Shown here piece after piece: positions 2,973 to 58,097 of a DNA stretch of 64,000 nt. This DNA comes from Escherichia coli. GTDB taxonomy: Bacteria > Pseudomonadota > Gammaproteobacteria > Enterobacterales > Enterobacteriaceae. Below the pieces are notes generated by a model. The model was not told the origin of the DNA. It did no database searches and worked only from the letters and a program-made list of their open reading frames with translations. How positions within the stretch are numbered: the stretch's first letter is position 1; every line of letters starts with the position of its first letter. The position numbers and the translations under genes are program-made. Location: the NCBI RefSeq assembly GCF_003019035.1, contig NZ_CP027447.1; one strand, 5' to 3'.

Positions 2973-2993
2973 GTCATACGTCCACAGCATATT

Positions 2994-3107
2994 TATCCGC
3001 TCAAGGGGATATTATCAGTTTTATCCTTTAGTGGGGATAAAGTCAATCAGGAAACACATCTTATCCGCTCTACGGGATAAACACTGTGATATCCGCGATC
3101 GCGGATA
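2994..3107. promoter_or_regulatory. hipBA promoter-operator region with four TATCC-N8-GGATA HipB operators
   Basis: Palindromes read directly at 2994-3011, 3022-3039, 3062-3079 and 3090-3107. Confidence 0.85.
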
Positions 3108-3146
3108 AAAAGGAGGATTTAAAAGTCGTTTGAAGTCGGCAATATT

Positions 3147-3175
3147 AAGCCGCATGCATCTTCGACATGCGGCTT
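3147..3175 (-). terminator. Candidate terminator hairpin downstream of the autotransporter gene
   Basis: 10-bp perfect stem AAGCCGCATG / CATGCGGCTT; trailing U-tract on the minus strand is weak. Confidence 0.35.
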
Positions 3176-3182
3176 ATACGGT

Positions 3183-6100
3183 TTACCAGCTATATTTCAC
3201 ACCCAGCATGCCCTGAGTATCGCTATAGCCTTTATCACCTAGTTGCACACCGACATTCCCCCACAGGCTAAGGTTGTTATTTACTTTCGCCTCAACCCCG
3301 GTACGTACTTCACCGAGATTACGCGCACCATCACGGCTTACGTTTTGACCATTCATCTTCACGGCGTAGACTTTGCTGTTGTTGATCCAGTTCGCTTCAA
3401 TGTAAGGCTGGAACTCACGCTGTTTACCATTGTCACGCTGGTGATGACTGTTCTGGTAGGTTTTCACCCCAAGTCGTGTTTGCACGTTTCCGTCTCCTTC
3501 CGTTTCAATGCGTGTTCCGTCTTTCCGGGTATGGTCAGAATCTTTCACACCCATCCAGGTGATTTGTACCTGTGGCTGGACGTACCAGGTATTCAGCGTC
3601 CCTTCGCTGCCGCTAAATGTTCCCGCTTCAAAGGTATACCCACCCTCAACAGAGGCCGTCACACCGCGAGAATCATAGTCGTCAGCAGAACGGTTATCGG
3701 AACTGACGCTGTTATCAAACCAGTTATACAGCGCCCAGCTGTCAACATAAGCGCCGGTCTTATTCGCATCGTTCTGATACCAGGTCGCGTACAGTCCTGC
3801 GCTGTAACCGCTGATGCGCCCATCCGATTTATAACCCACATGATTACTCTGAGTATTACTGTGCTGATTGGCATAGCCTGCCATCACGCCGAGATGCCAG
3901 CGATCCTGCGCGTTGCTACTCCACTGCGCCAAATCGCCGCCTAGCTGCAATACATAGCGGTTAGCCTGAGTATTTAGCTGACCATCACCGGTCCTGAAAC
4001 GTTCGTGCCCTCCGACATGACGCATCCATATACTGGTTGCCGAATCCTGAACTCGCAGTGAATCTGTATACTGCGGCTCACCCAGACGGTCGTGTAAGCG
4101 ATGGCTAAACAGCGAGTTGGCTGCGGCAATGTTGCTGATATAGCTTCCGGCCTCCGGGCGATAAACTGATGGGCCTTCCGGATCCACAACAGGGGGATTA
4201 TTGATGGGATCGGGTGTATCCGCTGGCGTTACGCCGTCCCATTTACTGGTCAGATACCAGTTTTTCTCGTCATTCCCCTTCCCTTTAGCCAGCGTGTAGA
4301 CGTAAGCCCCAGCTTCGACAGTTCCGGTGGTCAGCGCGAAGTTACCTGCAGAATTACCGCCAACCTCAATGAGTTCAATACCGTTGACCGTTTGTGCACC
4401 GACGCCGCCAATGTTATTAACCCGAACGCGGGTATTGCCCTGCGTATCACCTTTTACGTTCATTTTATCCGTGGGGGAATTATCGCTACCCAGCGTCGCG
4501 TTGAACGTCATCAGGCCATTGTTTCCGGTATAGTTACCGTTAACGGTCAGTACATTCCCCGGTTTCCCCCCTTCGCTGTTCATTTGAACCGTGCCACCAT
4601 TCTCCAGGTTACCGCCGACAGTGGTTTTAGCGACACGCAGTGTCCCCCCAGGCATAACGTTCACATCACCTGCAGTGGTGACATTTCCCGACATCACACC
4701 GCTGTTATGGATATTAATGTGCTGACTTGCCATATTAATGGCAGAGTCGGAACCGAAAGCAATTTCACCACCCACGATATCCGTCGTACCCTGGTACGCC
4801 GCGGAATCGTTGTTAAGAGTCAGGATCCCGGACCCCAGTTTTGTCACACCGCCGCTACCGGTGATACTGTGCGTCATCGCCCAGCTACGCTCAGTGGAGA
4901 TGGTGAGCAGGCCATTATTGATAACGGAAGCATCACCCAGGTTTTTCTGCTCGTTGACGCTGAGCGCGCTGCCTGTATCAATGTTGAATTGCCCCACAAA
5001 GCGGCTATTATCGCCATCCAGCTCTACGTCTGTCCTGGCGGTTGCGCTCACGATACCCTTCCCGCTTATGCTATTACGCAGTTCGCCGGTCACGTTTTTT
5101 AGCGTTAACAGACCGTCATTGGCAATATTTCCTCTGCCTAACCCCTGCGTATTATCGAGGCTGACTTCCGCATTTGGGCTAACGCTGGTTAACGCATTGT
5201 AGCGTGCATTAAGCCCCTCGATAGCCAGCGTTCCCCCTGTAACATTCAGGTTTCCGCCACCTGTCAGTTCACCCTGACTGATCCCACCTTTATTCACCGT
5301 CAGCGACCCTTCTTTGAACAAAACAGTCGAACCCATCTGCCCGGTGAATGTCTCTACCGTCTGCGTCGATCCATTAAGATCGACGATGGCCGCGTTGCTG
5401 ATGTTCAGTTCCCGGGTGTTGCCCAGCGCGCCATCCGCATCGGTACGTAATGTCCCCATCTGAACGTAGGTTGCCCCCTGATAGTCGTTCTGACCGTTGG
5501 AAAGCGAAACCTGTCGCACCGTATTGATTGCCAGATCCCCTTCACCACCGATTTTTGCCGACATATCGGCCGTTGCGCCATAGGCTCCGCCATGTTCGGC
5601 TAATGTCAGCTTTTGCCCACCATGGATGTTCAGCGCTTTCAGCCCATAGTTAACGTACAAACCATCACCTGGTGCGGTCGTGAGGCGGAATCCATAATCA
5701 CCCTCGGCGACCACCGTTCCGTTTTGCGCAATGTGTAACGTTTTGTCCGCTTCCACCTCGTCGCCCTGTAAATCACGTAACGTTAATGAGCCACCCGACC
5801 CAATAACCGTTTGCGCCTTCACCAGTTGAACGCCGACATGGTTATCATCGTGTTCCAGCAAATTGAGCGTCGTCAGAGGGTTATTCGCCATGGGATCATT
5901 CCACGGTTTAGGCACGTCGATAAGCACGTCGCCCGTCCCGTTTACCTGATAGTTACGGCCTTTCCAGGTGTAGTCACCCGCGCCGACAGCCAGCGTATCG
6001 ACGCTGATATATCCCTCCGCAAGCGTCGCAGCAGGTATATCCGTATCGAAAGTGAGCGTACCGCCATTCATGGCTAGTCCACCAATGGATTGCTCTCCCA

Positions 6101-8603
6101 CGTTTACCGATGTGGTATTTTCACTGTCAGACTGAAGCATCGCGTGAGTAAGCGCAGCGGTGTTGTCGCGTTCCAGTGTGAAGGTACTGTCTTTCAGTTG
6201 GACAACACCGGCGAATTCAGTTCCTGTTGCATGGGTAAAGCCAAACATTTTGTCGGAGGATGACAGCTGCACTCGCATCAAGCCATCGCCTTTGAGCGCA
6301 TTGGTCAGCGTGTAATCTCCTGCGCTGTTCGTTGATGCGAGAATGTCGAGCGTACCGGGGCTTGCAATGGTGACTTCACTCGAACCCATGCCCGTTACCC
6401 CATCTGCCGTATGTGACGCAATGGTCAGGAGGCCGTCATTGACCAGCGTTTTACCGCTATAAGTATTCCCTGCATTGAACACCGTATGGCCTGCATCATG
6501 TATCACTTTTCCGTCTTTATCGTCACCCGTAATCAGCATATCGACCTGGTAGCCGGCATCACTGTTATTGGTATGATTAAAGACAAAAACACCTTCGCCA
6601 GAACCAAACTCTACTTTCGTCGCGTTGGCGATAAACCCGGCATCTGCCGCCGCCTCACCGTGAGCAGCACCAATGTTTAGCGTTCCTACAGCAGGTTCAA
6701 AAAGACCTAAGTAAACTTCGCCACCTTCGACATTCAGCGTGCCGTTATTCGTCAGGGTTAACGTACCCGTACCAGACGTCCCTACATTCATATTGAATGT
6801 TTCAAGAAGAGAGTTCTGCCCATCCACCCGCACGTCGCCCTTACTTTTGTCATTCAGAGCTATCTGTGTATCACGCGCTTTAACTATACCTCCGGTGGTA
6901 ATATTCAGTTCACCCGTACCTAATACACCGACCTGTAGCAATTGGGCGTTAGTAGATGACGTTTTTAAATTCCAGAGACTATCCGTTGAAATATTAACTA
7001 TCCCCTTACCGGAGGCATTTCCTCCGATAAATCCATAGCCCGTTGAATTAAGGGTGGCACCATTACTGACATTTACGATGCCGCTACCAAAATTACCGAC
7101 ATTGATACCTACAGTATCGAACGATGATGTCGCATCCATCAGGTTCAGTGTGCCGATACCGCTTGCTTTATCGCCCAAAAAAGTAATATTTTGCGATACG
7201 AACTTACCGCCATCGCTGATATTGAGGTTTCCGACGCCCGCAACACCAATGGTGGTGTAGACATTCTTATTGACCTCCCATATCCCCCCCGTGGTGATGC
7301 TAACCTTCCCGACGCCGGTTTCTCCATAACCGAGTGAACTTCCTCCGTTGCTGACAACAAGCCCCTCATTACTGATATTCATTTCGCCGTGGCCGTCATA
7401 ACCAAGATTAGTTCCGAGATTAGTGATAACGGAGTTCTTATCCTTAACAGTAATGTTGCCTGTGCCTGTTTCTTTCATCCCCGCAGTGATAATTCCCGAA
7501 TCTACTTTGCCTTCACTAGAGACATTAAGTTCACCGTCGCCAGCATCACCGATATAGATATAGCGGAAAGCTTCGCCCGTTCCGAGGAAATTCCAATGCC
7601 CTTTATCGGTCACGTTGACGACACCGTGGGAACCGTCCTGAACGCCCACCAATGAATATTCTTTGTTATTAATCAGTCCATTATTGGAAATATTGACTTT
7701 GCCATTACCGAAATATCCATTATAGAGTCTGCGTACCGTGATGACAGAGTCTTGATCCTGCACATTCAGGGTTCCGATACCGGTGGCATTGCCTCCGATA
7801 ATCGTATTTTCAGCCGTAATTAGCCCACCCTCGCGAATAGTCGCTTCCCCAGTTCCTTGATTACCAATTTGAAATTCAATTGAGGAATCGTTATTTTTTA
7901 TTAGCCACTCACCGCCCTTTTCAACGACAACCTTACCATTACTGTTCGCTTGATATCCTACAGTGGCGACTATTGAACTCGTGACGTAACCCTTATCCGT
8001 AATATTTAATGAGCCCGTACCGTAACTCCCTATTTCGAATAATTCGGTCGTCAGAACCGAGTCCTCTCCCTCAACATTAACCGTCCCGACGCCTCCTGTC
8101 GAAGAACCTATCCTTAAATATCCTCCGTCAACGTGACCCTTCTGTTTAATATTCAGCGTCCCCGTTCCGGATTGACCCACATTTAAAGGCCTTGCATTAT
8201 TTCCGCTATCATACAATCGCCAGGTCCCACCCAAAACATTAACGGTGCCCTCCGAGTCCTCATTAGCGCCAATGACGCTGGTAGTAATAGTGGTTAAGGA
8301 AGCATTACCGCCAGCCAAAATATTAAGCACTCCAGTGCCATACCAGCCAACCAGGTAGGCATCATAAGCAACATCAGTATCAATATTGGTAATCTGACCA
8401 TTATCAACTTCCAGACTCGCACCAGACGCTGAACCGCTTAGTGCCAGCAAAACACCCAGCGTCAATCTACTGAGTTTCGTTGTCAGTCCAGAGGATTTAC
8501 GCAAATTAACCGTCGATGTTTTACCTACCCTGCGAGTTAATTCAGAGCAGGCCTGAAATACCTGTAGAGTGCAATTCCATATCACGCGATAGATTCTATT
8601 CAT
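3183..8603 (-). CDS. AIDA-I-type autotransporter adhesin, 1806 aa, intact (YdeK/YneO-family locus)
   Basis: N-terminal extended signal peptide (MNRIYRVIWN...), long Gly/Thr/Asn-rich beta-helix passenger repeats, C-terminal beta-barrel ending ...LGVKYSW. Confidence 0.85.
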   Translation of the reverse strand: MNRIYRVIWNCTLQVFQACSELTRRVGKTSTVNLRKSSGLTTKLSRLTLGVLLALSGSASGASLEVDNGQITNIDTDVAYDAYLVGWYGTGVLNILAGGNASLTTITTSVIGANEDSEGTVNVLGGTWRLYDSGNNARPLNVGQSGTGTLNIKQKGHVDGGYLRIGSSTGGVGTVNVEGEDSVLTTELFEIGSYGTGSLNITDKGYVTSSIVATVGYQANSNGKVVVEKGGEWLIKNNDSSIEFQIGNQGTGEATIREGGLITAENTIIGGNATGIGTLNVQDQDSVITVRRLYNGYFGNGKVNISNNGLINNKEYSLVGVQDGSHGVVNVTDKGHWNFLGTGEAFRYIYIGDAGDGELNVSSEGKVDSGIITAGMKETGTGNITVKDKNSVITNLGTNLGYDGHGEMNISNEGLVVSNGGSSLGYGETGVGKVSITTGGIWEVNKNVYTTIGVAGVGNLNISDGGKFVSQNITFLGDKASGIGTLNLMDATSSFDTVGINVGNFGSGIVNVSNGATLNSTGYGFIGGNASGKGIVNISTDSLWNLKTSSTNAQLLQVGVLGTGELNITTGGIVKARDTQIALNDKSKGDVRVDGQNSLLETFNMNVGTSGTGTLTLTNNGTLNVEGGEVYLGLFEPAVGTLNIGAAHGEAAADAGFIANATKVEFGSGEGVFVFNHTNNSDAGYQVDMLITGDDKDGKVIHDAGHTVFNAGNTYSGKTLVNDGLLTIASHTADGVTGMGSSEVTIASPGTLDILASTNSAGDYTLTNALKGDGLMRVQLSSSDKMFGFTHATGTEFAGVVQLKDSTFTLERDNTAALTHAMLQSDSENTTSVNVGEQSIGGLAMNGGTLTFDTDIPAATLAEGYISVDTLAVGAGDYTWKGRNYQVNGTGDVLIDVPKPWNDPMANNPLTTLNLLEHDDNHVGVQLVKAQTVIGSGGSLTLRDLQGDEVEADKTLHIAQNGTVVAEGDYGFRLTTAPGDGLYVNYGLKALNIHGGQKLTLAEHGGAYGATADMSAKIGGEGDLAINTVRQVSLSNGQNDYQGATYVQMGTLRTDADGALGNTRELNISNAAIVDLNGSTQTVETFTGQMGSTVLFKEGSLTVNKGGISQGELTGGGNLNVTGGTLAIEGLNARYNALTSVSPNAEVSLDNTQGLGRGNIANDGLLTLKNVTGELRNSISGKGIVSATARTDVELDGDNSRFVGQFNIDTGSALSVNEQKNLGDASVINNGLLTISTERSWAMTHSITGSGGVTKLGSGILTLNNDSAAYQGTTDIVGGEIAFGSDSAINMASQHINIHNSGVMSGNVTTAGDVNVMPGGTLRVAKTTVGGNLENGGTVQMNSEGGKPGNVLTVNGNYTGNNGLMTFNATLGSDNSPTDKMNVKGDTQGNTRVRVNNIGGVGAQTVNGIELIEVGGNSAGNFALTTGTVEAGAYVYTLAKGKGNDEKNWYLTSKWDGVTPADTPDPINNPPVVDPEGPSVYRPEAGSYISNIAAANSLFSHRLHDRLGEPQYTDSLRVQDSATSIWMRHVGGHERFRTGDGQLNTQANRYVLQLGGDLAQWSSNAQDRWHLGVMAGYANQHSNTQSNHVGYKSDGRISGYSAGLYATWYQNDANKTGAYVDSWALYNWFDNSVSSDNRSADDYDSRGVTASVEGGYTFEAGTFSGSEGTLNTWYVQPQVQITWMGVKDSDHTRKDGTRIETEGDGNVQTRLGVKTYQNSHHQRDNGKQREFQPYIEANWINNSKVYAVKMNGQNVSRDGARNLGEVRTGVEAKVNNNLSLWGNVGVQLGDKGYSDTQGMLGVKYSW

Positions 8604-50087: not shown

Positions 50088-50403
50088 TATAATAAACTTA
50101 CTTTTTTATCATTTTTCCACTTTAACAACATTTTGCTCCACTTTTCCACGACCAAACAACTTGAAATCTGGTTAAAATAACACGCAACACTATTCTTCTT
50201 CCTTGAGTCCGCCCGGAACTCGAAAAACAAACCGAGTTAAAGCCATTTCTCACAAAACCGATTTTGGGTCTCACCAAAATTACGGGGTTGCATACGCATT
50301 CGTTTATTTTCGAACGTGTACATACAAATATGCACAAAAATAATCAAAATTATTTTCTGAGATGCATTATGATATGAACACCAATTTCGTATAGAGTCTC
50401 ACT

Positions 50404-50994
50404 ATGTCTCGAATTTTTGCTTACTGTCGGATATCAACGCTGGATCAGACCATCGAAAATCAACGCCGGGAAATCGAAAGTGCAGGTTTTAAAATCAAAC
50501 CTCAGCAAATAATCGAAGAACACATTAGCGGCTCAGCAGCAACCAGTGAGCGTCCTGGTTTTAACCGGTTGCTTGCTCGCCTGAAATGTGGTGATCAATT
50601 GATTGTGACAAAACTGGATCGCCTTGGTTGTAATGCAATGGATATCAGGAAAACAGTGGAACAACTGACCGAAACAGGTATCAGAGTGCATTGCTTAGCA
50701 TTGGGGGGCATTGACCTGACCAGTCCAACAGGAAAAATGATGATGCACGTAATTTCAGCAGTCGCTGAATTTGAACGAGACCTTTTACTTGAACGCACTC
50801 ATTCCGGGATAGTAAGAGCCCGCGGCGCAGGGAAACGTTTTGGTCGACCACCTGTGTTAAATGAAGAACAGAAACAGGTGGTATTCGAACGAATTAAGTC
50901 AGGTGTAAGTATAAGTGCCATTGCCCGGGAATTCAAAACCTCGCGGCAAACCATTTTAAGAGCCAAAGCAAAACTTCAGACACCTGATATATAA
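50404..50994 (+). CDS. pin: Serine recombinase, Pin/Gin/Hin-family DNA invertase (196 aa)
   Basis: N-terminal resolvase catalytic domain (…[10 protein letters not shown]…) and C-terminal HTH; convergent with the tail-fibre genes. Confidence 0.9.
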
Positions 50995-51091
50995 AAAATA
51001 ATCTCGGTGTGAGATGCTTTACGTCTTCCAAGCCCCCTTCCTTGCCGTAAATGGAAAGATACATCTAATTATAGAATTTATATGTTTTACC

Positions 51092-51208
51092 CTACGGCAG
51101 TGCTGGCCATTCAATATCCTGTGCAGTTGACGTATCAACACGGTTCAGCAATACCCGATACTTTTTCCATGCTTCCAGCAACGAGGTTTCTTCCTCCGTT
51201 GCATATAC
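51092..51208 (-). pseudogene. tfa: 3' remnant of a tail-fibre assembly gene (tfa), about 38 codons
   Basis: Frame encodes …[38 protein letters not shown], matching the conserved Tfa C-terminus; homology stops abruptly upstream. Confidence 0.6.
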
Positions 51209-51221
51209 AGCCCACCTTTTT

Positions 51222-51515
51222 TCACCCACGATTAACCAACAGCCAGACCAGCAGACACGCCACCACCGGCACAGCAAAATCCATCAGGCTTGCCACATCC
51301 CACGCGCGCGGATCAAAACCGCCCCACCACGGCATATTCATTCGCTTGCCATGCCCGAACATTTCAATCCAGCGATATTCTGCCTGGGTATGTTCACGCG
51401 CAATGAAGAACGTACAACCGGCTATCGCTCCGTAAGCCCAGTTTCCGGTAAAAAGACCAACCAGTATCTGCGCAGCCACAGCACAAAGTGCATGAAGTAA
51501 GGGGCTTATATCCAT
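51222..51515 (-). CDS. Hypothetical small membrane protein (97 aa, two predicted TM segments)
   Basis: Hydrophobic stretches [28 protein letters not shown] and [15 protein letters not shown]; no lipobox; lies where the tfa body is expected. Confidence 0.5.
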
Positions 51516-51527
51516 TATTTCCTCCTT

Positions 51528-51806
51528 TCAGCTCCATTCCCGAAGCGGTGTTTCCAGCTCCACGACATAATCAGAGAATACAGAAACATCAAACAAGTCA
51601 TCAAGAATGCGAATGTTGACAAAATAACCGTTATTCCGGATACAGACAGGTTCTCCCTCTTCAGTTACCCCTGTTTCTGTGTAGGTGAAACCAATTTCAT
51701 CGACTAACAGTTTATTCTGGAGGTCTTCATCTTCCTCCCAGTCAAGAGATGACAGGAAGGATTTAAACTCTCTGTTACCAGGAAATTTCAAAGTTAAATC
51801 TTTCAT
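51528..51806 (-). CDS. Hypothetical small acidic protein (92 aa); possible fibre chaperone or moron product
   Basis: ORF immediately downstream of, and 4-nt overlapping, stf; Asp/Glu-rich; no resemblance to Tfa that I can see. Confidence 0.5.
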   Translation of the reverse strand: MKDLTLKFPGNREFKSFLSSLDWEEDEDLQNKLLVDEIGFTYTETGVTEEGEPVCIRNNGYFVNIRILDDLFDVSVFSDYVVELETPLREWS

Positions 51807-53833
51807 ACTGCCTCCTTGATTTGCCTGTCATTTAATTCTTTAAACCAGACTCTGAAATTTCTGATGTGTCCAAACAAATGACGCGTTCCTGCTGCGGTCT
51901 GCCCACCAAACCGGTACGATGTTGCTGTAACTCCAAATATTTTACCATTAAGGTTTGTTGTATAATTACCATTGCATATTGCATTTACTGATAAATCAGA
52001 TTTAGCTCTCACACCCACAATGAACCTTTCTCCATCTGAGGAAATTTGTGGCTGAACCATTCCTACGTTGGCGCTTATCTTTCCTGTTGAAACAAACCCC
52101 AGCGATAAATAATTATCATCAATACTGTGCCCTCCAACATCAAATATCCTTGGCGCAACATTGGGCGGTGTACTCCAGTTCCTCCTTACTTCGCACAATA
52201 CTGTAAAAGGCCGTGTTGACAGGTTATTCGCCGAGGGGATAGTAACCACATCACTTGCGCGTGTTGTTGGCATTGTAGTTACAATAAATGACGATGCCGT
52301 ATTGCCCAGTTCAATTTGCGGCGTCGTCATGGTTAATGTTGAGTCATCATAGAATGGCTCATTACTTATTTTATTTGTCATATAAAAAGCACAGTTAACG
52401 GTATCAATGTCCGTATTAGCTGTATAAGTGGCCTCATAGTAGGTCCACTCGCCCTGTTGTTCAGCTTTGGCTGTTATAAGGGATGTATTACCGCTTACTG
52501 TTGCGATCCGGGTATCCAGATCAAGATAAGAGTCAGCAGAGAATGTATCTGTTCCACCAATAATAACTGAAACTCTTAACCTGCATCGTGCTTTAGCGCC
52601 TTTAACCCGGCACGAAAAAGTGAAACATTCACCACTTGCCAGCGGGAATCTGTCTGCTGCAACCACACCATGCACAGTATAGCCACCTGTTGTTCCCACT
52701 ATACTTTCCGTGGGTGTCACCGTGGCATAATTGAACCCCTGTTTATCAGTGCCAAATGTTTTATTCAGTGCGGAATGAACAGTCCATGAGTCTGGTTTAT
52801 TTGAGTTCCTCAGATAATTTGTCCTCTGTCCTTCAATCAATAAGCCATCGCGCTCAAATCGCGGTTCGTCAACTTCAGCAAGCTTGAGTTGGCCGGACTT
52901 ATTAATATACGTTGCTGTTGAAGCACGTTTAAACTTAACAATCTTGTCGCCTGGCATTGTTATTTCATCGTCACCAATAACAATCTTTTTATAAGATGGC
53001 GAAAAACCCGTAATCATATCCAGCGAATCGTTAAACGGTATCCACACATCAGGCAGCGGCGGCACTATATTCGCATAGGGCTCTGCAGTCACTTCCGCTG
53101 CGGCTTCTGCGCGGTCTGCCGCCTTTTCAGCTCGTGTCGCTGCCGACAGAGCCTCATCCTTTTTCTGCCCGGCCTTTGTTGCGTCTGCTGCGGCCTCCCG
53201 CGCTTTTGTGGTGGCGACTCCGGCATTTTCAGCGGCTGACTCTGCATTACGGCGGGAAGCCTCTTCACTGTCTGCGGAGGCTTCTTCTGACGCACGGGCA
53301 TTTGTCTCTGAACGTTCTGCCGCTGTTGCTGCGTTTTGTGCGGCTGTTTTTGAAGAAGCTGCCGCTTTCGCGCTGTTACCTGCATTCGTCTCTGATGTTT
53401 TCGCCGCGTTCCTGGACGATGCCGCTGCTGTTTCTGATTTCTTTGCTGCCGCTGCGCTCTGAGAGGCGGCTTCAGCGTTGCGTGCTGCTTCTTCCACCAT
53501 TGCCTCAAAACGACGCAATGCCTCCGGCATGACATCATCTTCCGTCATGGCACCGAGAAAATCATTCAGCGTACCAGGTCTGGAACCTTCATAGACGGTA
53601 ATGGTTCCGGCATGTGAAGGCGGAAAACCTTCAACCAGCAGGGTGACGCTGTACTGGCCATACTCGACATCCATGCTGTAACGCCCGGCTTCATCCGGAT
53701 TTTCAGAGGCTACCGTGTTCACCAGTACCGTGGTGCTGTTACGCTTTGCCTTCAGTTGAATAGTGCAGTTCTGTATTGGTTTTCCCGCACCATCTTTCAG
53801 CACACCTGAGATTTTTACTGCTGCCATATCCAC
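51803..53833 (-). CDS. stf: Side tail fibre protein Stf (676 aa) with lambda-type N-terminus and lectin-like C-terminal domain
   Basis: N-terminus MDMAAVKISGVLKDGAGKPIQNCTIQLKAKRN… matches lambda Stf; Ala-rich coiled segment; C-terminus …HLFGHIRNFRVWFKELNDRQIKEAV resembles the terminal strand of Laminin-G/concanavalin-like domains. Confidence 0.85.
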   Translation of the reverse strand: MDMAAVKISGVLKDGAGKPIQNCTIQLKAKRNSTTVLVNTVASENPDEAGRYSMDVEYGQYSVTLLVEGFPPSHAGTITVYEGSRPGTLNDFLGAMTEDDVMPEALRRFEAMVEEAARNAEAASQSAAAAKKSETAAASSRNAAKTSETNAGNSAKAAASSKTAAQNAATAAERSETNARASEEASADSEEASRRNAESAAENAGVATTKAREAAADATKAGQKKDEALSAATRAEKAADRAEAAAEVTAEPYANIVPPLPDVWIPFNDSLDMITGFSPSYKKIVIGDDEITMPGDKIVKFKRASTATYINKSGQLKLAEVDEPRFERDGLLIEGQRTNYLRNSNKPDSWTVHSALNKTFGTDKQGFNYATVTPTESIVGTTGGYTVHGVVAADRFPLASGECFTFSCRVKGAKARCRLRVSVIIGGTDTFSADSYLDLDTRIATVSGNTSLITAKAEQQGEWTYYEATYTANTDIDTVNCAFYMTNKISNEPFYDDSTLTMTTPQIELGNTASSFIVTTMPTTRASDVVTIPSANNLSTRPFTVLCEVRRNWSTPPNVAPRIFDVGGHSIDDNYLSLGFVSTGKISANVGMVQPQISSDGERFIVGVRAKSDLSVNAICNGNYTTNLNGKIFGVTATSYRFGGQTAAGTRHLFGHIRNFRVWFKELNDRQIKEAV

Positions 53834-53891
53834 TCCACAAAAAAGCCCGCCTGAACCGGCGGGCTGTCATAACACTGTGTTACCTGGCTAA

Positions 53892-54491
53892 TCAGAATTT
53901 ATAACCGACACCCACGATGAAACCGTCAGTGCGCCAGTCACCACTGCCGGAACCTTCATAAGCAAGGTCAATGGCCACGGATTCGGTCGGGTTAAACTGC
54001 ACGCCAGCCCCCCACGCCAGAGACGTGTTGCTGTGGCGACCGTCATCACTTCCGGTCAGCACATCGTGCGTTTTCCCCTTGTTGTCAGTTACGCGGAGAT
54101 AATCCCCGGAGAAGGTCGACACACGGCTGTAAGCCATACCCGCCATCGCATACGCGCTGAACCATTCATTCACGCGCACAGACGGCCCCGCCATCACGCT
54201 GAACCAGCGGTTACGCACGGAATCTTCATGCCAGCGGGTATCGCTGTAATGCGTTTTTTGCTCATCTTTGGCATTGGCATAACTGAATGACGTCACCAGC
54301 CCCAGCGTGTCCGTAAACTCATAACGGTATTTCACGTTAATCCCGTTCAGATCATCGCTGCCGGGAACGTTCGTCGAGGCATGAAGATACCCCGCGCTCA
54401 GCGTGGACTGATGTTCAGACGCCCATGCAGGCGCACCGGATACGGCCAGACAAATGGCTACGGACAAAATGGCGGCATAAAGTTTACGCAT
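53892..54491 (-). CDS. lom: Lom outer-membrane protein (Ail/PagC/Lom family)
   Basis: Signal peptide plus 8-strand beta-barrel family sequence ending …GFIVGVGYKF. Confidence 0.9.
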   Translation of the reverse strand: MRKLYAAILSVAICLAVSGAPAWASEHQSTLSAGYLHASTNVPGSDDLNGINVKYRYEFTDTLGLVTSFSYANAKDEQKTHYSDTRWHEDSVRNRWFSVMAGPSVRVNEWFSAYAMAGMAYSRVSTFSGDYLRVTDNKGKTHDVLTGSDDGRHSNTSLAWGAGVQFNPTESVAIDLAYEGSGSGDWRTDGFIVGVGYKF

Positions 54492-54557
54492 AATTACCTC
54501 TCGCTTTTCTGCAATAAAAAAGGCGTCATTTCTGACGCCCGTTATGGGTTATAAAAT

Positions 54558-57500
54558 TCAGCTGATACTGATGCCTGCGGTGGCTTTCTTCATCACCACA
54601 ACCAGCAAATCGCTGATACTTGCTGTGGGATACCAGTCATTTACCAGCCATGCTGACACCGAAAACTCCAGCGTCATGTGGCCGTGACCAGCTGGCATAT
54701 CAATAACGCCACTGTAAATCAGCGTATTATCCAGCGCGGTACGGTTATAAATTTCAGCACCGTTTTTCCGCACTATCAGACGGCATGAGGAGTAAATATC
54801 AGTATGCTCTCTCTCATGTTTAGCACCGCTGAATGCCACCGCCGGAATAACAATCTGCCGGTCAAACGGCTGATCGTCATAAATCCTGACGGTAATGGTC
54901 CCTGATGGCCACCGCTCCGGTGCCCGGGAGTCCCGCGGGAAAGCCTTACCCACTGTTTTGACAATATCGCCTTCAATCTGGTTGGCTGACAGTTTCCCTT
55001 TAATCTGACAGTTCTCATTTATCGTAACGTTGTTGAGCGTCCCGGCGTTCGCATTCACACTGCCACTGATATCCGCATTTTTCGCCGTCAGTCGCCCGTC
55101 CGGTGTCAGGGAAAATGCCGGAGGATTACCGCCGCTGGTAATGGTGGGAGCCGTCAGATATTTCAGGAACACGTCATTCATGAATATCTGATCGCCCTGA
55201 CCAACAAACATCGGCTTTGTGTTGCCATTCGCAGGATTAATCATCGCAATCCTGTCTGCCGCCAGCAGCACCTGACTCTGCATGCCGTCGGGGGTGTTCT
55301 CAATACCGGCACCGATACCCGCAATATAAAGGCGTCCGTCCTGCATCTGCTGCAGCTTCACTGCCCACATGCTGTTCAGGTTATTATTTGTATCAACCTG
55401 AACCTTCTGTATCTGCTGGATCGCTGCACTCTGGTCTTCCAGTTTCTTATTGACGGTCTGTGTTATTTCATTGCTGACATCCGTTATGGACGTCCTGATT
55501 TCAGTCAGGTCAGGCGCAAGCTGACCGTTATCAATCTGCGTCCACAGCTCCTGAGCCAGATGGGTTTTCCCTATCTCGCCTTTGAAAAAATCCAGATAGC
55601 CGGATGCATCATCACTCGGCTGACCAACAGCCTCCACGAATGCCGATTTGCCAACGGTGTTCACACTGCGAACATAAAAATAATAATCATGGCCCGGTTT
55701 GATATTGATACTGGCGGCTATCCAGTACAGCGCCGTACCAAGATAACGCGCGCTGGTTTCAACCTGCCTGATATCAGCAATCCGTTTTTCCGAGAACCAG
55801 AACTCAAACTGTACCGTCGGATCATAAACCGCAAGATGCGGCGTGGCGGTTATCTGAAAATAGCCCGGCGTCAGCTCAATCCGCGACGGCGCTGCCGGTG
55901 CGGCAATCCGGAACGATACCGACGCCGGATCGCCCTGCTGCCCCCACGCATTTACTGCCCGGACTGTCAGCCTGTAGTTCCCCAGAGCCAGTTGTGTGAA
56001 GCGGTAAGTGGTTTCCGTCGTCCGGGCCGTGCTGACCAGCCGCTCACTGCCGTCATCCGCTGCCACGGTCAGGCGAAGCAGGAAGCTCACGCCCTTCACC
56101 ACCTTCGGTGTGTCCCATCGCGCCAGCACCTGATATTCCCCGCTGTCTGCAGTGACTTCTGCGGTCAGGTGCTGCACTGCTGGCGGCGTGACACCATTCA
56201 CCGTGCCGCTCTGGTCACCGTCAAAGTGCGCCCCGTTATCCACGATGGCTTCTTTCTCCGGTACATGCTGCACGGCAGTGATGGCATACGTACCGTCATC
56301 GTTCTCACGGATACTCACACAGCGGAACAGACGCTGGCGCAGCGTCGGCAGCTTCAGCCCCCATACGCTGTATTCAGCAACACCGTCAGGAACACGGCTC
56401 ACTTTTACCTTCACGCCGTCGGTGACGGACTGAACCTCCACGCTGACCGGATTGCCACTTCCGTCAACCAGGCTTATCAGCGTGGTACCGGAGGATGGCA
56501 GCGTGATTTCACGGTCGAGCGTCAGCGTCCGGGTCTGGCTGTTCACCGCCAGCACGCGACCACCGATGCTGATACCGGCATAGTCATCATCACAGATTTC
56601 AATGACATCGCCCGGTACATGGCGAAGCCCTTCTGCGCCCACGCTGAAGTCCACGGTCTGCGTTTCCAGCAGTTCCGTTTTAATCAGCCACAGCCCGGCG
56701 CGGTGCGCCTGCCCCCGGCTGGTACAGCCAAAAGCATCCATCTTCGTGACGTTACGACCGTAACGGGCAATGGCCTGCGTGTCCTCCACAAGCTCTGTTG
56801 CCGTTTCCCAGCCGTTATCCGGGTCAATCCAGTTCACTTCAACGGCATTATGGCGGTCCTTCAGGGCGCTGAAGCTGTAGCGGAACGGCGCGCCATCATC
56901 CGGCATCACCACATTACTGCGGTTATAGGTCCACACCTTATCCGACGGTCGGTCCTGCACGAACGTCAGCGTCTGCCCGTTCCATACCGGCATACAGCGC
57001 ATCGCCGAGCAGAAATCACTGAGCACATCCCACGCCTTGCGCTGTGTGGTCAGGTACGCATTACAGGTAATGCGCGGCTCCGTGCCGCCAAAGCCGTCCG
57101 GCACCGACTGGTCGCAGTACTGGCCGATGACATACAGCGCCCATTTATCCACATCCGCCGCACCAAGACGTTTCCCCATGCCGTAGCGCGGATGGGTCAG
57201 CATATCCCACAGACACCAGGCCATGTTGTTGCTGTATGCTGGCTTAAACGTTCCGTCCCAGATACCGCTGTATTGCCGCGTCAGCGGGTTATAGTTCGAC
57301 GGCACCTGCAGAATACGCCCGCGCAGATGATAATTACGGCTCACCTGCTGGCTGCCGAACTGCTCCGAGTCCACCTGCACGCCGACCAGTGCCGTGTTCG
57401 GGTAGCACTGTTTCACATCGATGATTTCGGTGTATGACGACCAGAGCGTTTTGTTCTGCAGCTGGTCTGTAGTGCTGTCCGGCGTCATCCTGCGCATCCG

Positions 57501-58034
57501 GATACTGAACGGGCGCGGCGGCAGGTTACCCACCACCACCGAGGCCAGATACTGTGAGGTGGTTTTGCCTTTAATGGTGATGTCTTTTTCCGTCACCCAG
57601 CCACCGTTACGTTGTATCTGAACCAGCAGGCGGACTTCCGACGGATTCCGGTCACCCTTTGAGGTGGTTTCCACCAGTGCCTGCACACCAAAGGTAAAGC
57701 GCAGACGGTCGATATTTGCAGACGTGATGGTGCGGGTTATCGGCGTGTCGTATTTCACTTCCGTACCCAGCACCGTCTCGGAGCCGGAGGATTCAAAACC
57801 CTCCGGCGGTGTCTGCTCCTGCTCACCGGCCCGGAACACCACCGTGACACCGGCGATGTTGGTATTCCCTTCGCTATCCAGCACCGGCGTACTGTTCAGC
57901 AGCACGCTTTTTAATCCATCCACCGGACCTTCAATCGGCCCTTCGCTGATGGCATCGATCACACTCAGTAACTGCGTGGATTTCAGGTTGTCCTTCGCTT
58001 CGCGCGGGGTATGCCCCTTACTGCTGCCTTTACC
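54558..58034 (-). CDS. J: Tail tip host-specificity protein J (start at [15 protein letters not shown])
   Basis: N-terminal ~850 aa match lambda J as I recall it; C-terminal ~300 aa diverge; the track ORF extends 16 codons upstream. Confidence 0.9.
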
Positions 58035-58097
58035 CATTCCTAACGCTCCATAAACGACAAAACCGCCCGGAGGCGGTTTCACATAAAATATTTTGCA

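What the first reader, a model, noticed from the sequence alone, without database searches (positions are those of the whole stretch)
51092..51806. Two-gene cassette of unknown function has replaced most of tfa between the tail fibre and pin
In lambdoid and Pin-type systems stf is followed by a roughly 190-codon tfa chaperone gene. Here only the last ~38 codons of tfa survive (…[36 protein letters not shown]), and the ~600 bp upstream encodes two same-strand ORFs with no Tfa similarity: a 92-aa highly acidic cytoplasmic-type protein (51528-51806) and a 97-aa protein with two hydrophobic helices (51222-51515). A small membrane protein paired with a small soluble partner at the fibre/b-region junction is the usual location for lysogenic-conversion or superinfection-exclusion morons; the acidic protein could alternatively be a replacement fibre chaperone for the unusual Stf C-terminus. 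I cannot assign either gene to a known family from sequence alone.
Basis: partly seen in the sequence, partly recalled or inferred. Interest (0 to 1): 0.65.

Follow-up and report, generated by a model that had tools for sequence, protein, structure and literature searches.

The report
Phage-21-type tail-fibre module, two uncharacterised genes
The two small genes are real, but they are the usual end of a side-tail-fibre module found in phage 21 and about a third of E. coli genomes: one is a partner of the fibre, the other a conserved small membrane protein of temperate phages, and neither has a known function.

Summary
On the minus strand the order is stf (51803-53833), a 92-aa acidic ORF (51528-51806), a 97-aa membrane ORF (51222-51515), then the last 36 codons of tfa (51092-51202), facing pinQ. 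It is not a local or unusual event.

- **Spread:** the same block occurs in phage 21 and many temperate coliphages. The 97-aa gene is in 1870 of 5426 complete E. coli genomes and this 92-aa allele in 1125.
- **tfa scar:** the break falls at TfaQ residue 156 in all 42 related loci with enough flank. Most copies have no start codon, so it is one old recombination scar.
- **Not a pair:** in 63 of 78 related prophage loci a distal-fibre gene lies between the two genes.
- **92-aa protein (phrog_1361):** it follows, with an ATGA overlap, every fibre with this C-terminal module, including those of virulent T1-like, T5-like and Seuratvirus phages. It is most likely a fibre assembly factor or joint.
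- **97-aa protein (UniProt "Ybl63", phrog_1443):** a strongly conserved three-helix membrane protein placed directly after receptor-binding genes of temperate sipho-, myo- and podoviruses. Virulent phages with the same fibre lack it, so it is most likely a lysogen-benefit envelope protein.

No family, fold or paper assigns either a function. The region is ordinary, though both genes are uncharacterised.

The parts
51803..53833 (-). Side tail fibre Stf (676 aa from the GTG; PGAP starts two codons later). It has an N-terminal tail anchor, an Ala-rich coiled coil, a GTA-head-spike-like carbohydrate-binding region and a conserved C-terminal module ending ...RHLFGHIRNFRVWFKELNDRQIKEAV. It has no S74 intramolecular chaperone domain.
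   Evidence: ORF. phrog_1419 at E=6e-298. NCBIfam GTA_spike_fiber covers aa 332-526. Pfam gives phage_tail_N at 5-134, a weak CBM_4_9 match, and no Peptidase_S74. The last ~430 aa align with the fibres of phage 21, HannyBb, KarlJaspers, VogelGryff and IrisVonRoten.
51528..51806 (-). 92-aa acidic cytoplasmic protein (phrog_1361). It is the constant downstream partner of this fibre type. Its start overlaps the stf stop (ATGA), and its Shine-Dalgarno AAGGAGG lies at 51811-51817.
51222..51515 (-). 97-aa three-helix membrane protein (UniProt name Ybl63, phrog_1443). It has an invariant core [26 protein letters not shown]. Its Shine-Dalgarno AAGGAGG lies at 51521-51527, directly after the 92-aa stop codon.
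   Evidence: phrog_1443, E=2.4e-58. There are 577 homologues, about 60% identical out to Comamonas and Aeromonas, and 437 clusters at 50% identity, nearly all of 58-146 aa and none fused to a larger protein. AlphaFold2 gives pLDDT 95.2. Foldseek returns only uncharacterised homologues named Ybl63. dN/dS is 0-0.23.
51092..51202 (-). tfa' pseudogene scar: codons 156-191 of a 191-codon tfaQ-type gene plus the stop. This is the conserved C-terminal part of Tfa. It is not an expressed gene.
   Evidence: Tfa PHROGs match only the last 36 residues; same break at residue 156 in 42 of 42 loci. One search shows an in-frame TGA upstream in most copies, with an internal stop or frameshift in some.
50404..50994 (+). 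pinQ serine invertase, convergent with the tfa' scar. No invertible segment remains.
   Evidence: ORF. PGAP annotation as pinQ. No inverted repeats link the pin-proximal region with stf.

Best explanation
Window 51092-53833 is the distal end of a phage-21-type side-tail-fibre module that lambdoid prophages exchange as a block.

**Shown**
- The Stf has a conserved C-terminal module and no S74 auto-chaperone and no Tfa.
- The 92-aa gene is translationally coupled to it and accompanies this fibre type in temperate and virulent phages.
- The 97-aa gene is a separate, widely spread and strongly conserved small membrane-protein gene. It sits directly behind receptor-binding-protein genes of temperate phages.
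- The tfa fragment is a single old recombination scar.

**Inferred**
- The 92-aa protein is the assembly factor of this fibre, doing the job Tfa or an S74 domain does for other fibres. In phages with a distal fibre it may also help form the joint.
- The 97-aa protein is an inner-membrane protein that benefits the lysogen or the infected cell at the envelope. It would block re-infection or alter or hide the surface glycan receptors that the neighbouring fibres and tailspikes bind. It is not needed to build the fibre.
For: **Block identity and spread**
- Phage 21 CPT_21_22/23/24 and many temperate coliphages carry the same block.
- The 97-aa gene is in 1870 and the 92-aa allele in 1125 of 5426 complete E. 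coli genomes.
- An identical block sits at the Rac site of another strain.

**Scar**
- The break is at TfaQ residue 156 in 42 of 42 loci, and there is no conserved start codon.

**The 92-aa gene is tied to the fibre**
- It appears in 143 phage records, always beside a fibre gene.
- The upstream fibres share the ~430-aa C-terminal module in lambdoid, Drexlerviridae, Seuratvirus and Tequintavirus phages.
- It overlaps the stf stop as ATGA.
- Stf has no S74 domain, whereas the distal fibres and the single-chain Stf of L006, which lacks a 92-aa gene, end in one.
- It is kept intact without a distal fibre in at least two or three diverged lineages.

**The 97-aa gene is independent and linked to temperate phages**
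- It lies behind a P22-like tailspike, HP1/P2-like fibres, pectate-lyase tailspikes, a J-like tip protein and a Tfa gene.
- It overlaps the upstream gene by 4 nt in 7 of 12 contexts.
- It is absent from virulent phages with the same fibre + 92-aa module.
- One copy is chromosomal and outside any phage, in Aeromonas.
- It has 26 invariant positions, including H8, E41, E46, D68 and D79.
Against: - No experiment, family match or fold match gives a function for either protein, and no paper was found.
- The 92-aa protein could be a structural joint rather than a chaperone. Most loci have a distal fibre with a conserved N-terminal motif right after it.
- The 92-aa sequence does not track the variable part of the fibre's C-terminal domain. 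Window and phage 21 are 91% identical in the 92-aa protein but about 42% in the last third of Stf.
- For the 97-aa protein, the tight overlap with late fibre genes and the lack of a predicted promoter of its own are unusual for a gene expressed in lysogens.
- About 60% identity across bacterial classes is unusual for an exclusion protein in an arms race.
- In one distant metagenomic phage both small genes again lie together behind this fibre type, which leaves some room for a functional link between them.
Confidence: 0.6

Rival explanations
1. The 92-aa protein is a structural part of the virion. It would be a joint or cap at the end of the proximal fibre to which the conserved N-terminus of a distal fibre docks. 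In the window and in phage 21, which lack a distal fibre gene, it would merely cap the fibre or be a leftover.
For: In 63 of 78 related prophage loci and in the virulent phages examined, the next gene is a short distal fibre. It has a shared N-terminal motif xIPxDIxxLK and its own S74 chaperone domain. The BASEL authors model the IrisVonRoten distal fibre as attached to the homologous proximal fibre (PMC11990801). The 92-aa sequence does not co-vary with the variable fibre tip.
Against: The gene stays intact and under purifying selection in at least two or three diverged lineages with no distal fibre gene, and the window holds no distal-fibre homologue. The proximal fibre would then have no chaperone at all. 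No structural similarity to known fibre joints was found.
Confidence: 0.3
2. One reading: the two proteins act together as a membrane-plus-soluble lysogenic-conversion or superinfection-exclusion cassette that was inserted in place of tfa.
For: They are adjacent here, 12 nt apart with coupled ribosome-binding sites. In a distant metagenomic contig, a fibre of the same type is followed by a 97-family gene and then a distant 92-like gene.
Against: Their distributions are largely independent. The 92-aa family is in virulent T1-like, T5-like and Seuratvirus phages without the membrane gene. The 97-aa family follows unrelated fibres and tailspikes without the 92-aa gene. A fibre gene separates them in 63 of 78 loci. 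Neither matches a PADLOC defence model.
Confidence: 0.08
3. The 97-aa protein is a late lytic-cycle membrane protein, a holin- or antiholin-like lysis-timing factor, rather than a lysogen-benefit gene.
For: It is co-transcribed and often translationally coupled with late fibre genes. It is a small protein with several membrane helices. In Comamonas and one metagenomic contig it is followed by two further small hydrophobic ORFs. From my own knowledge, the T4 holin gene t lies directly after tail-fibre gene 38.
Against: It has no charged C-terminal tail, ending two or three residues after helix 3. No endolysin is adjacent in the window or in most contexts. The neighbours in Comamonas match no lysis family. 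Conservation is far higher than among holins. It is absent from virulent phages with the same fibres.
Confidence: 0.1
4. Both ORFs are unexpressed debris of a disrupted tfa region.
For: They lie next to a genuine tfa pseudogene fragment.
Against: Both have strong Shine-Dalgarno sites and dN/dS well below 1, with saturated synonymous divergence between distant pairs. Both give confident AlphaFold2 folds and have hundreds of full-length homologues. They occur in functional phages such as phage 21.
Confidence: 0.02

Closest known systems
Phage 21 late-region genes CPT_21_22 (side tail fibre), CPT_21_23 (hypothetical) and CPT_21_24 (putative membrane protein), GenBank OL657228
   Same: Gene order and overlaps are the same. 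The 97-aa protein is 100% identical and the 92-aa protein 91% identical. Part of the same tfa scar follows.
   Different: In phage 21 the scar is cut at the position equivalent to window 51146 by the sitABCD island instead of running on to pin. The middle, receptor-binding part of its Stf is only about 33% identical.
Tfa-type tail fibre assembly proteins (lambda Tfa, Mu U, P2 G; phrog_105/188/136)
   Same: The 92-aa gene occupies the Tfa position, directly after and coupled to the fibre gene. It is small, acidic and cytoplasmic.
Two-part lateral tail fibres of virulent siphoviruses (for example IrisVonRoten bas32_0022-0024, KarlJaspers bas06_0037-0035)
   Same: The proximal fibre has the same C-terminal module and is followed by a homologous 91-93-aa gene at 47-51% identity.
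   Different: Those phages add a distal fibre with an S74 domain and have no 97-aa membrane gene. The window lacks the distal fibre.
Receptor-linked protection genes encoded next to receptor-binding genes (T5 llp, phi80/N15 cor; O-antigen modification genes next to P22/Sf6-type tailspikes). This comparison rests on my own knowledge.
   Same: The 97-aa gene lies directly after the host-recognition genes. It is found almost only in temperate phages and is a membrane protein.
   Different: It is not a lipoprotein and has no lipobox. It has no similarity to Gtr, Oac or any defence model. It is far more conserved, and it is linked to many different receptor-binding proteins rather than to one receptor. 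Its function is untested.

Membership tests
Tfa tail fibre assembly protein (phrog_105/188/136) | Sequence match to a Tfa profile over the whole protein, about 190 aa with an N-terminal fibre-binding part | tested here: not met
   The 92-aa and 97-aa proteins hit no Tfa family in PHROGs, NCBIfam or Pfam. The tfa fragment matches only the last 36 positions of the profiles and TfaQ residues 156-191.
Tfa tail fibre assembly protein (phrog_105/188/136) | Encoded directly downstream of the fibre gene and co-expressed with it | tested here: met
   This holds for the 92-aa gene: ATGA stop/start overlap with stf and a strong Shine-Dalgarno site. The same arrangement is seen in all phage contexts examined.
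phrog_1361 (fibre-linked 92-aa proteins, function unknown) | Full-length profile match | tested here: met
   E=4e-39 over residues 1-91 of 92. A profile search finds 365 homologues.
phrog_1443 / UniProt 'Ybl63' small membrane proteins (function unknown) | Full-length profile match and the invariant core [10 protein letters not shown]...MPWWGGFD | tested here: met
   E=2.4e-58 over residues 1-96 of 97. The alignment has 26 invariant columns. The top Foldseek hits are named Ybl63 at 94-100% identity.
Cor/Llp-type receptor-masking lipoproteins | Lipoprotein signal peptide with a lipobox cysteine | tested here: not met
   The residues before Cys11 are H-A-L. Leu at position -1 does not fit the lipobox, and no basic n-region precedes it (sequence).
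Known inner-membrane superinfection-exclusion proteins and defence systems (T4 Imm, PADLOC models) | Sequence match to a described exclusion or defence family | tested here: not met
   No PADLOC hit at E<=1, no Pfam hit at E<=0.001 and no NCBIfam hit.
Known inner-membrane superinfection-exclusion proteins and defence systems (T4 Imm, PADLOC models) | Expression in the lysogen and a block of phage adsorption or DNA entry | not testable with these tools
   This needs transcript data and plating, adsorption and injection assays.
Holins | Small membrane protein with a charged C-terminal tail, encoded next to an endolysin | tested here: not met
   Membrane helices are present. However, the protein ends 2-3 residues after the last helix, and its neighbours are fibre genes and pin.
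Classical moron (own promoter and terminator within a late operon) | Flanking promoter and terminator | tested here: inconclusive
   The consensus scan finds no promoter-like site just upstream of either gene and no terminator after the 97-aa gene. The scan is crude, and the gene overlaps its upstream neighbour in 7 of 12 contexts.
Pin/Gin-type invertible fibre segment | Inverted crossover sites flanking alternative fibre ends next to the invertase gene | tested here: not met
   No inverted repeat links the pin-proximal DNA with stf in 50300-54600, and only one fibre end is present.

The most novel reading that the evidence does not exclude
Two unrecognised functional classes may be present. 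First, the Ybl63 family would be a conserved inner-membrane effector that temperate phages of all three tail types carry behind glycan-binding fibres and tailspikes. Its invariant His/Glu/Asp/Cys residues suggest an enzyme or ion site. It could lower or alter display of surface polysaccharide receptors through a conserved inner-membrane step, or block genome entry, which would make it a new and very common kind of receptor-linked protection. Second, the 92-aa family would be a new class of tail-fibre chaperone or joint, unrelated to Tfa and to S74 domains, that serves one of the commonest lateral-fibre types of coliphages.
Probability: 0.25. Interest if true: 0.6.

Novelty: new member of a known kind. 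Interest (0 to 1): 0.33.

Why it matters
For this window it matters little. The region is one more copy of a common prophage fibre module, not a fresh gene replacement.

The two families themselves have some value. The 92-aa protein accompanies a lateral-fibre type used by temperate and virulent coliphages, including phages of the BASEL collection. Anyone who grafts these fibres onto other phages or delivery particles needs to know whether this small gene must travel with them.

The 97-aa protein is in about a third of complete E. coli genomes, often in several copies, and is conserved out to Comamonas and Aeromonas. If it changes phage sensitivity or the cell surface, it would be a widespread and overlooked factor in phage host range.

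Tried and rejected
- **Family searches:** Pfam, NCBIfam and PADLOC scans of both proteins gave nothing significant. The best Pfam hits were LUD_dom at E=0.036 and PhoR at E=0.082.
- **PDB sequence searches:** family profiles found nothing.
- **Literature:** the search for 'Ybl63' returned nothing. Searches on phage 21 and on stf-linked membrane proteins also returned nothing. The DT57C papers concern LtfC and S74-ended fibres, not this family. The SNIPE paper uses related PhiR phages but does not touch these genes.
- **Live Pin inversion system:** rejected, since there are no inverted repeats.
- **tfa fragment as a small functional gene:** rejected. A possible GTG start overlaps the 97-aa stop codon, but most copies have an in-frame stop upstream and some are broken.
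- **Distal fibre gene elsewhere in the window:** none found.
- **Hydrophobic ORFs after the family member in Comamonas and a metagenomic contig:** no family matched, so the lysis-cassette idea stays unsupported.
- **Co-folding:** the 92-aa protein could not be co-folded with the Stf trimer because the structure tool predicts single chains only.

Full report
**What is there.** The window matches the chromosome of E. coli GF131 at 100% identity. It shows a lambdoid prophage inserted in ydfJ, the Qin site. On the minus strand the order is:
- J (54558-58082)
- lom (53892-54491)
- stf (51803-53833)
- a 92-aa ORF (51528-51806)
- a 97-aa ORF (51222-51515)
- a tfa fragment (51092-51202)

pinQ (50404-50994) lies on the plus strand, converging on the tfa fragment.

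Both small ORFs have an AAGGAGG ribosome-binding site 4-5 nt before the ATG. The stf stop overlaps the 92-aa start as ATGA, and the 97-aa ribosome-binding site begins right after the 92-aa stop. The stated coordinates and sequences are therefore correct.

**The tfa fragment.** In K-12-like genomes the same chromosomal site holds pinQ facing an intact 191-codon tfaQ. The window is 99.2% identical to that DNA from pinQ up to position 51203 and unrelated beyond it. At protein level the fragment is TfaQ residues 156-191.

I fetched 80 related prophage loci. All 38 that extend far enough downstream break at residue 156, 20-23 nt after the 97-aa stop, and so do the window, HannyBb (L003) and the potB-site prophage L005, which makes 42 counting a duplicate hit. 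Identity to TfaQ ranges from 78 to 97%. Most copies carry an in-frame TGA just upstream and have no start codon. One has an internal stop and two share a frameshift.

So the 61-aa ORF seen in the window is accidental, and the fragment is a scar of one old joining event. Its variable last residues suggest that later exchanges with other tfa genes took place inside it. Phage 21 keeps only part of it, up to the equivalent of window 51146, where the sitABCD island begins.

**The block is common.**
- Phage 21 (CPT_21_22/23/24) and many temperate coliphages from infant stools and ECOR strains carry stf-92-97 in the same order.
- The 97-aa gene is found at 80% coverage or more in 1870 of 5426 complete E. 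coli genomes, with a median of two copies.
- This 92-aa allele is found in 1125 of them.
- An identical block sits at the Rac site of another strain.

**The 92-aa protein belongs to the fibre.** It is acidic (pI 4.08) with no hydrophobic stretch and matches phrog_1361, of unknown function.

Its genomic company is consistent:
- tblastn finds it in 143 phage records. These include virulent Drexlerviridae, Tequintavirus, Seuratvirus and Dhillonvirus phages, and the match always touches a tail fibre gene.
- In every context I opened, it follows a fibre whose last ~430 residues align with the window's Stf, from PDVWIPFNDSLDM to RHLFGHIRNFRIWHKELTD.
- A single-chain Stf that ends in an S74 auto-chaperone domain has no such gene after it.
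- The window's Stf has phage_tail_N, a GTA-head-spike-like region and a weak carbohydrate-binding match, but no S74 domain.

In the virulent phages and in 63 of 78 classifiable prophage loci, the next gene is a short distal fibre. It has the N-terminal motif xIPxDIxxLK and its own S74 domain. In the other 15 loci, as in the window and phage 21, that gene is missing, and the window has no copy elsewhere.

The arrangement without a distal fibre occurs with 92-aa proteins that are 82-100%, about 60% and 34% identical to the window's. All are intact, and dN/dS is 0.13-0.35.

My reading is that this is the assembly factor this fibre needs, since the fibre has neither Tfa nor an S74 domain. It may also be part of the joint to a distal fibre. 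The structural-joint reading remains a serious rival. The BASEL authors model the homologous IrisVonRoten fibre as a proximal fibre carrying a distal one, but they do not discuss the small gene (PMC11990801).

**The 97-aa protein is a separate, widespread gene.** It matches phrog_1443 and is named Ybl63 in UniProt, in both cases without a function. The family has these properties:
- There are 577 close homologues and 437 clusters at 50% identity. Nearly all of the 150 listed are 58-146 aa, and none is fused to a larger protein.
- Identity is still about 60% in Comamonas, Aeromonas and Leclercia.
- There are 26 invariant positions, including H8, Q16, C34, R40, E41, E46, D68 and D79.
- The model (pLDDT 95.2) has three helices.

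In 10 of 11 independent contexts outside the E. coli lambdoid group, the gene lies directly after a receptor-binding or fibre-assembly gene:
- a P22-like tailspike just before int
- HP1/P2-like fibres in Leclercia and Aeromonas
- pectate-lyase tailspikes in Salmonella and Citrobacter
- a J-like tip protein in Comamonas
- the tail fibre assembly gene of Halomonas phage phiHAP-1
- tailspike- or fibre-like genes, or unidentified truncated ORFs, on four metagenomic contigs

The exception is a chromosomal copy in Aeromonas with no phage genes nearby. The gene's start overlaps the upstream stop by 4 nt in 7 of 12 cases.

Virulent phages that carry the same fibre plus the 92-aa gene do not have it. 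Nearly all phage records with a full-length copy are temperate.

This pattern argues against a role in fibre assembly. It favours a benefit to the lysogen or infected cell at the envelope, in the manner of receptor-linked protection genes. That is an inference only. The tight coupling to late genes, the lack of a recognisable promoter of its own and the unusually high conservation all sit uneasily with a classical exclusion gene.

**Are the two a pair?** Mostly they are not, because their distributions are largely independent and a fibre gene usually separates them. One distant metagenomic contig does place a 97-family gene and a distant 92-like gene (29% identity, phrog_18574) together behind a fibre of the same type, in the opposite order. 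I cannot fully exclude a functional link.

**Verdict.** The event is old and widespread rather than local, and the two genes are catalogued but uncharacterised. The finding is ordinary as a genome feature. It has moderate residual interest because both families are common and lack a known function.

Noticed in passing
window 50404-50994 and 50300-54600: pinQ is intact (196 aa), but no inverted repeats link it to stf. The invertase appears to have no invertible fibre segment left to act on.
   Followed up: partly
L001 (phage 21) 536-3985; equivalent to window 51146: In phage 21 and most Lambda_ev-type phages, the sitABCD metal-uptake island is joined inside the tfa scar, replacing pin. The scar therefore serves as a junction for different cargo.
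   Followed up: partly
L006 (E. coli FDAARGOS_433) 2985-5279: In this prophage the 97-aa gene is a pseudogene with an internal stop. The DNA beyond it holds a SLATT-domain gene and a reverse-transcriptase gene, a likely defence system, where pin sits in the window.
   Followed up: no
L005 (E. coli RIVM_C039629) 3933-5098: There are two separate tfa C-terminal fragments with a class I SAM-dependent methyltransferase gene between them, downstream of the same stf-92-97 block at the potB site.
   Followed up: no
L018 (metagenomic contig) 89-2756: A distant phage has the order fibre (phrog_5939/1419 type), 97-family gene, distant 92-like gene (phrog_18574), then the start of another fibre-like ORF. 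Both small families are again together, but in swapped order.
   Followed up: partly
L007 (Comamonas) 6300-7521 and L020 564-1261: The 97-family gene is followed by two further small, very hydrophobic ORFs that look related between the two loci, and in Comamonas by a 183-aa phrog_3108 protein. None matches a known family. A lysis or membrane module is possible.
   Followed up: partly
window 53844-53865 (minus strand): A strong terminator-like hairpin (8 pairs, 7 of them G-C, followed by a T run) lies between lom and stf. Expression of stf-92-97 would therefore need read-through, as under late antitermination, or a promoter inside this gap.
   Followed up: no
L023-L102 (IMG/VR prophage contigs): Many predicted prophage contigs end exactly 3 nt after the 97-aa gene. 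Automatic prophage boundary calls seem to stop at this gene.
   Followed up: no
window 51803-53833, residues 5-97 of Stf: The N-terminal ~94 residues of Stf match a solved 'Tail fiber protein' chain (PDB 9e7m, 9mgh) at E=5.8e-49. The attachment end of this fibre is therefore structurally known, whereas its distal module is not.
   Followed up: no
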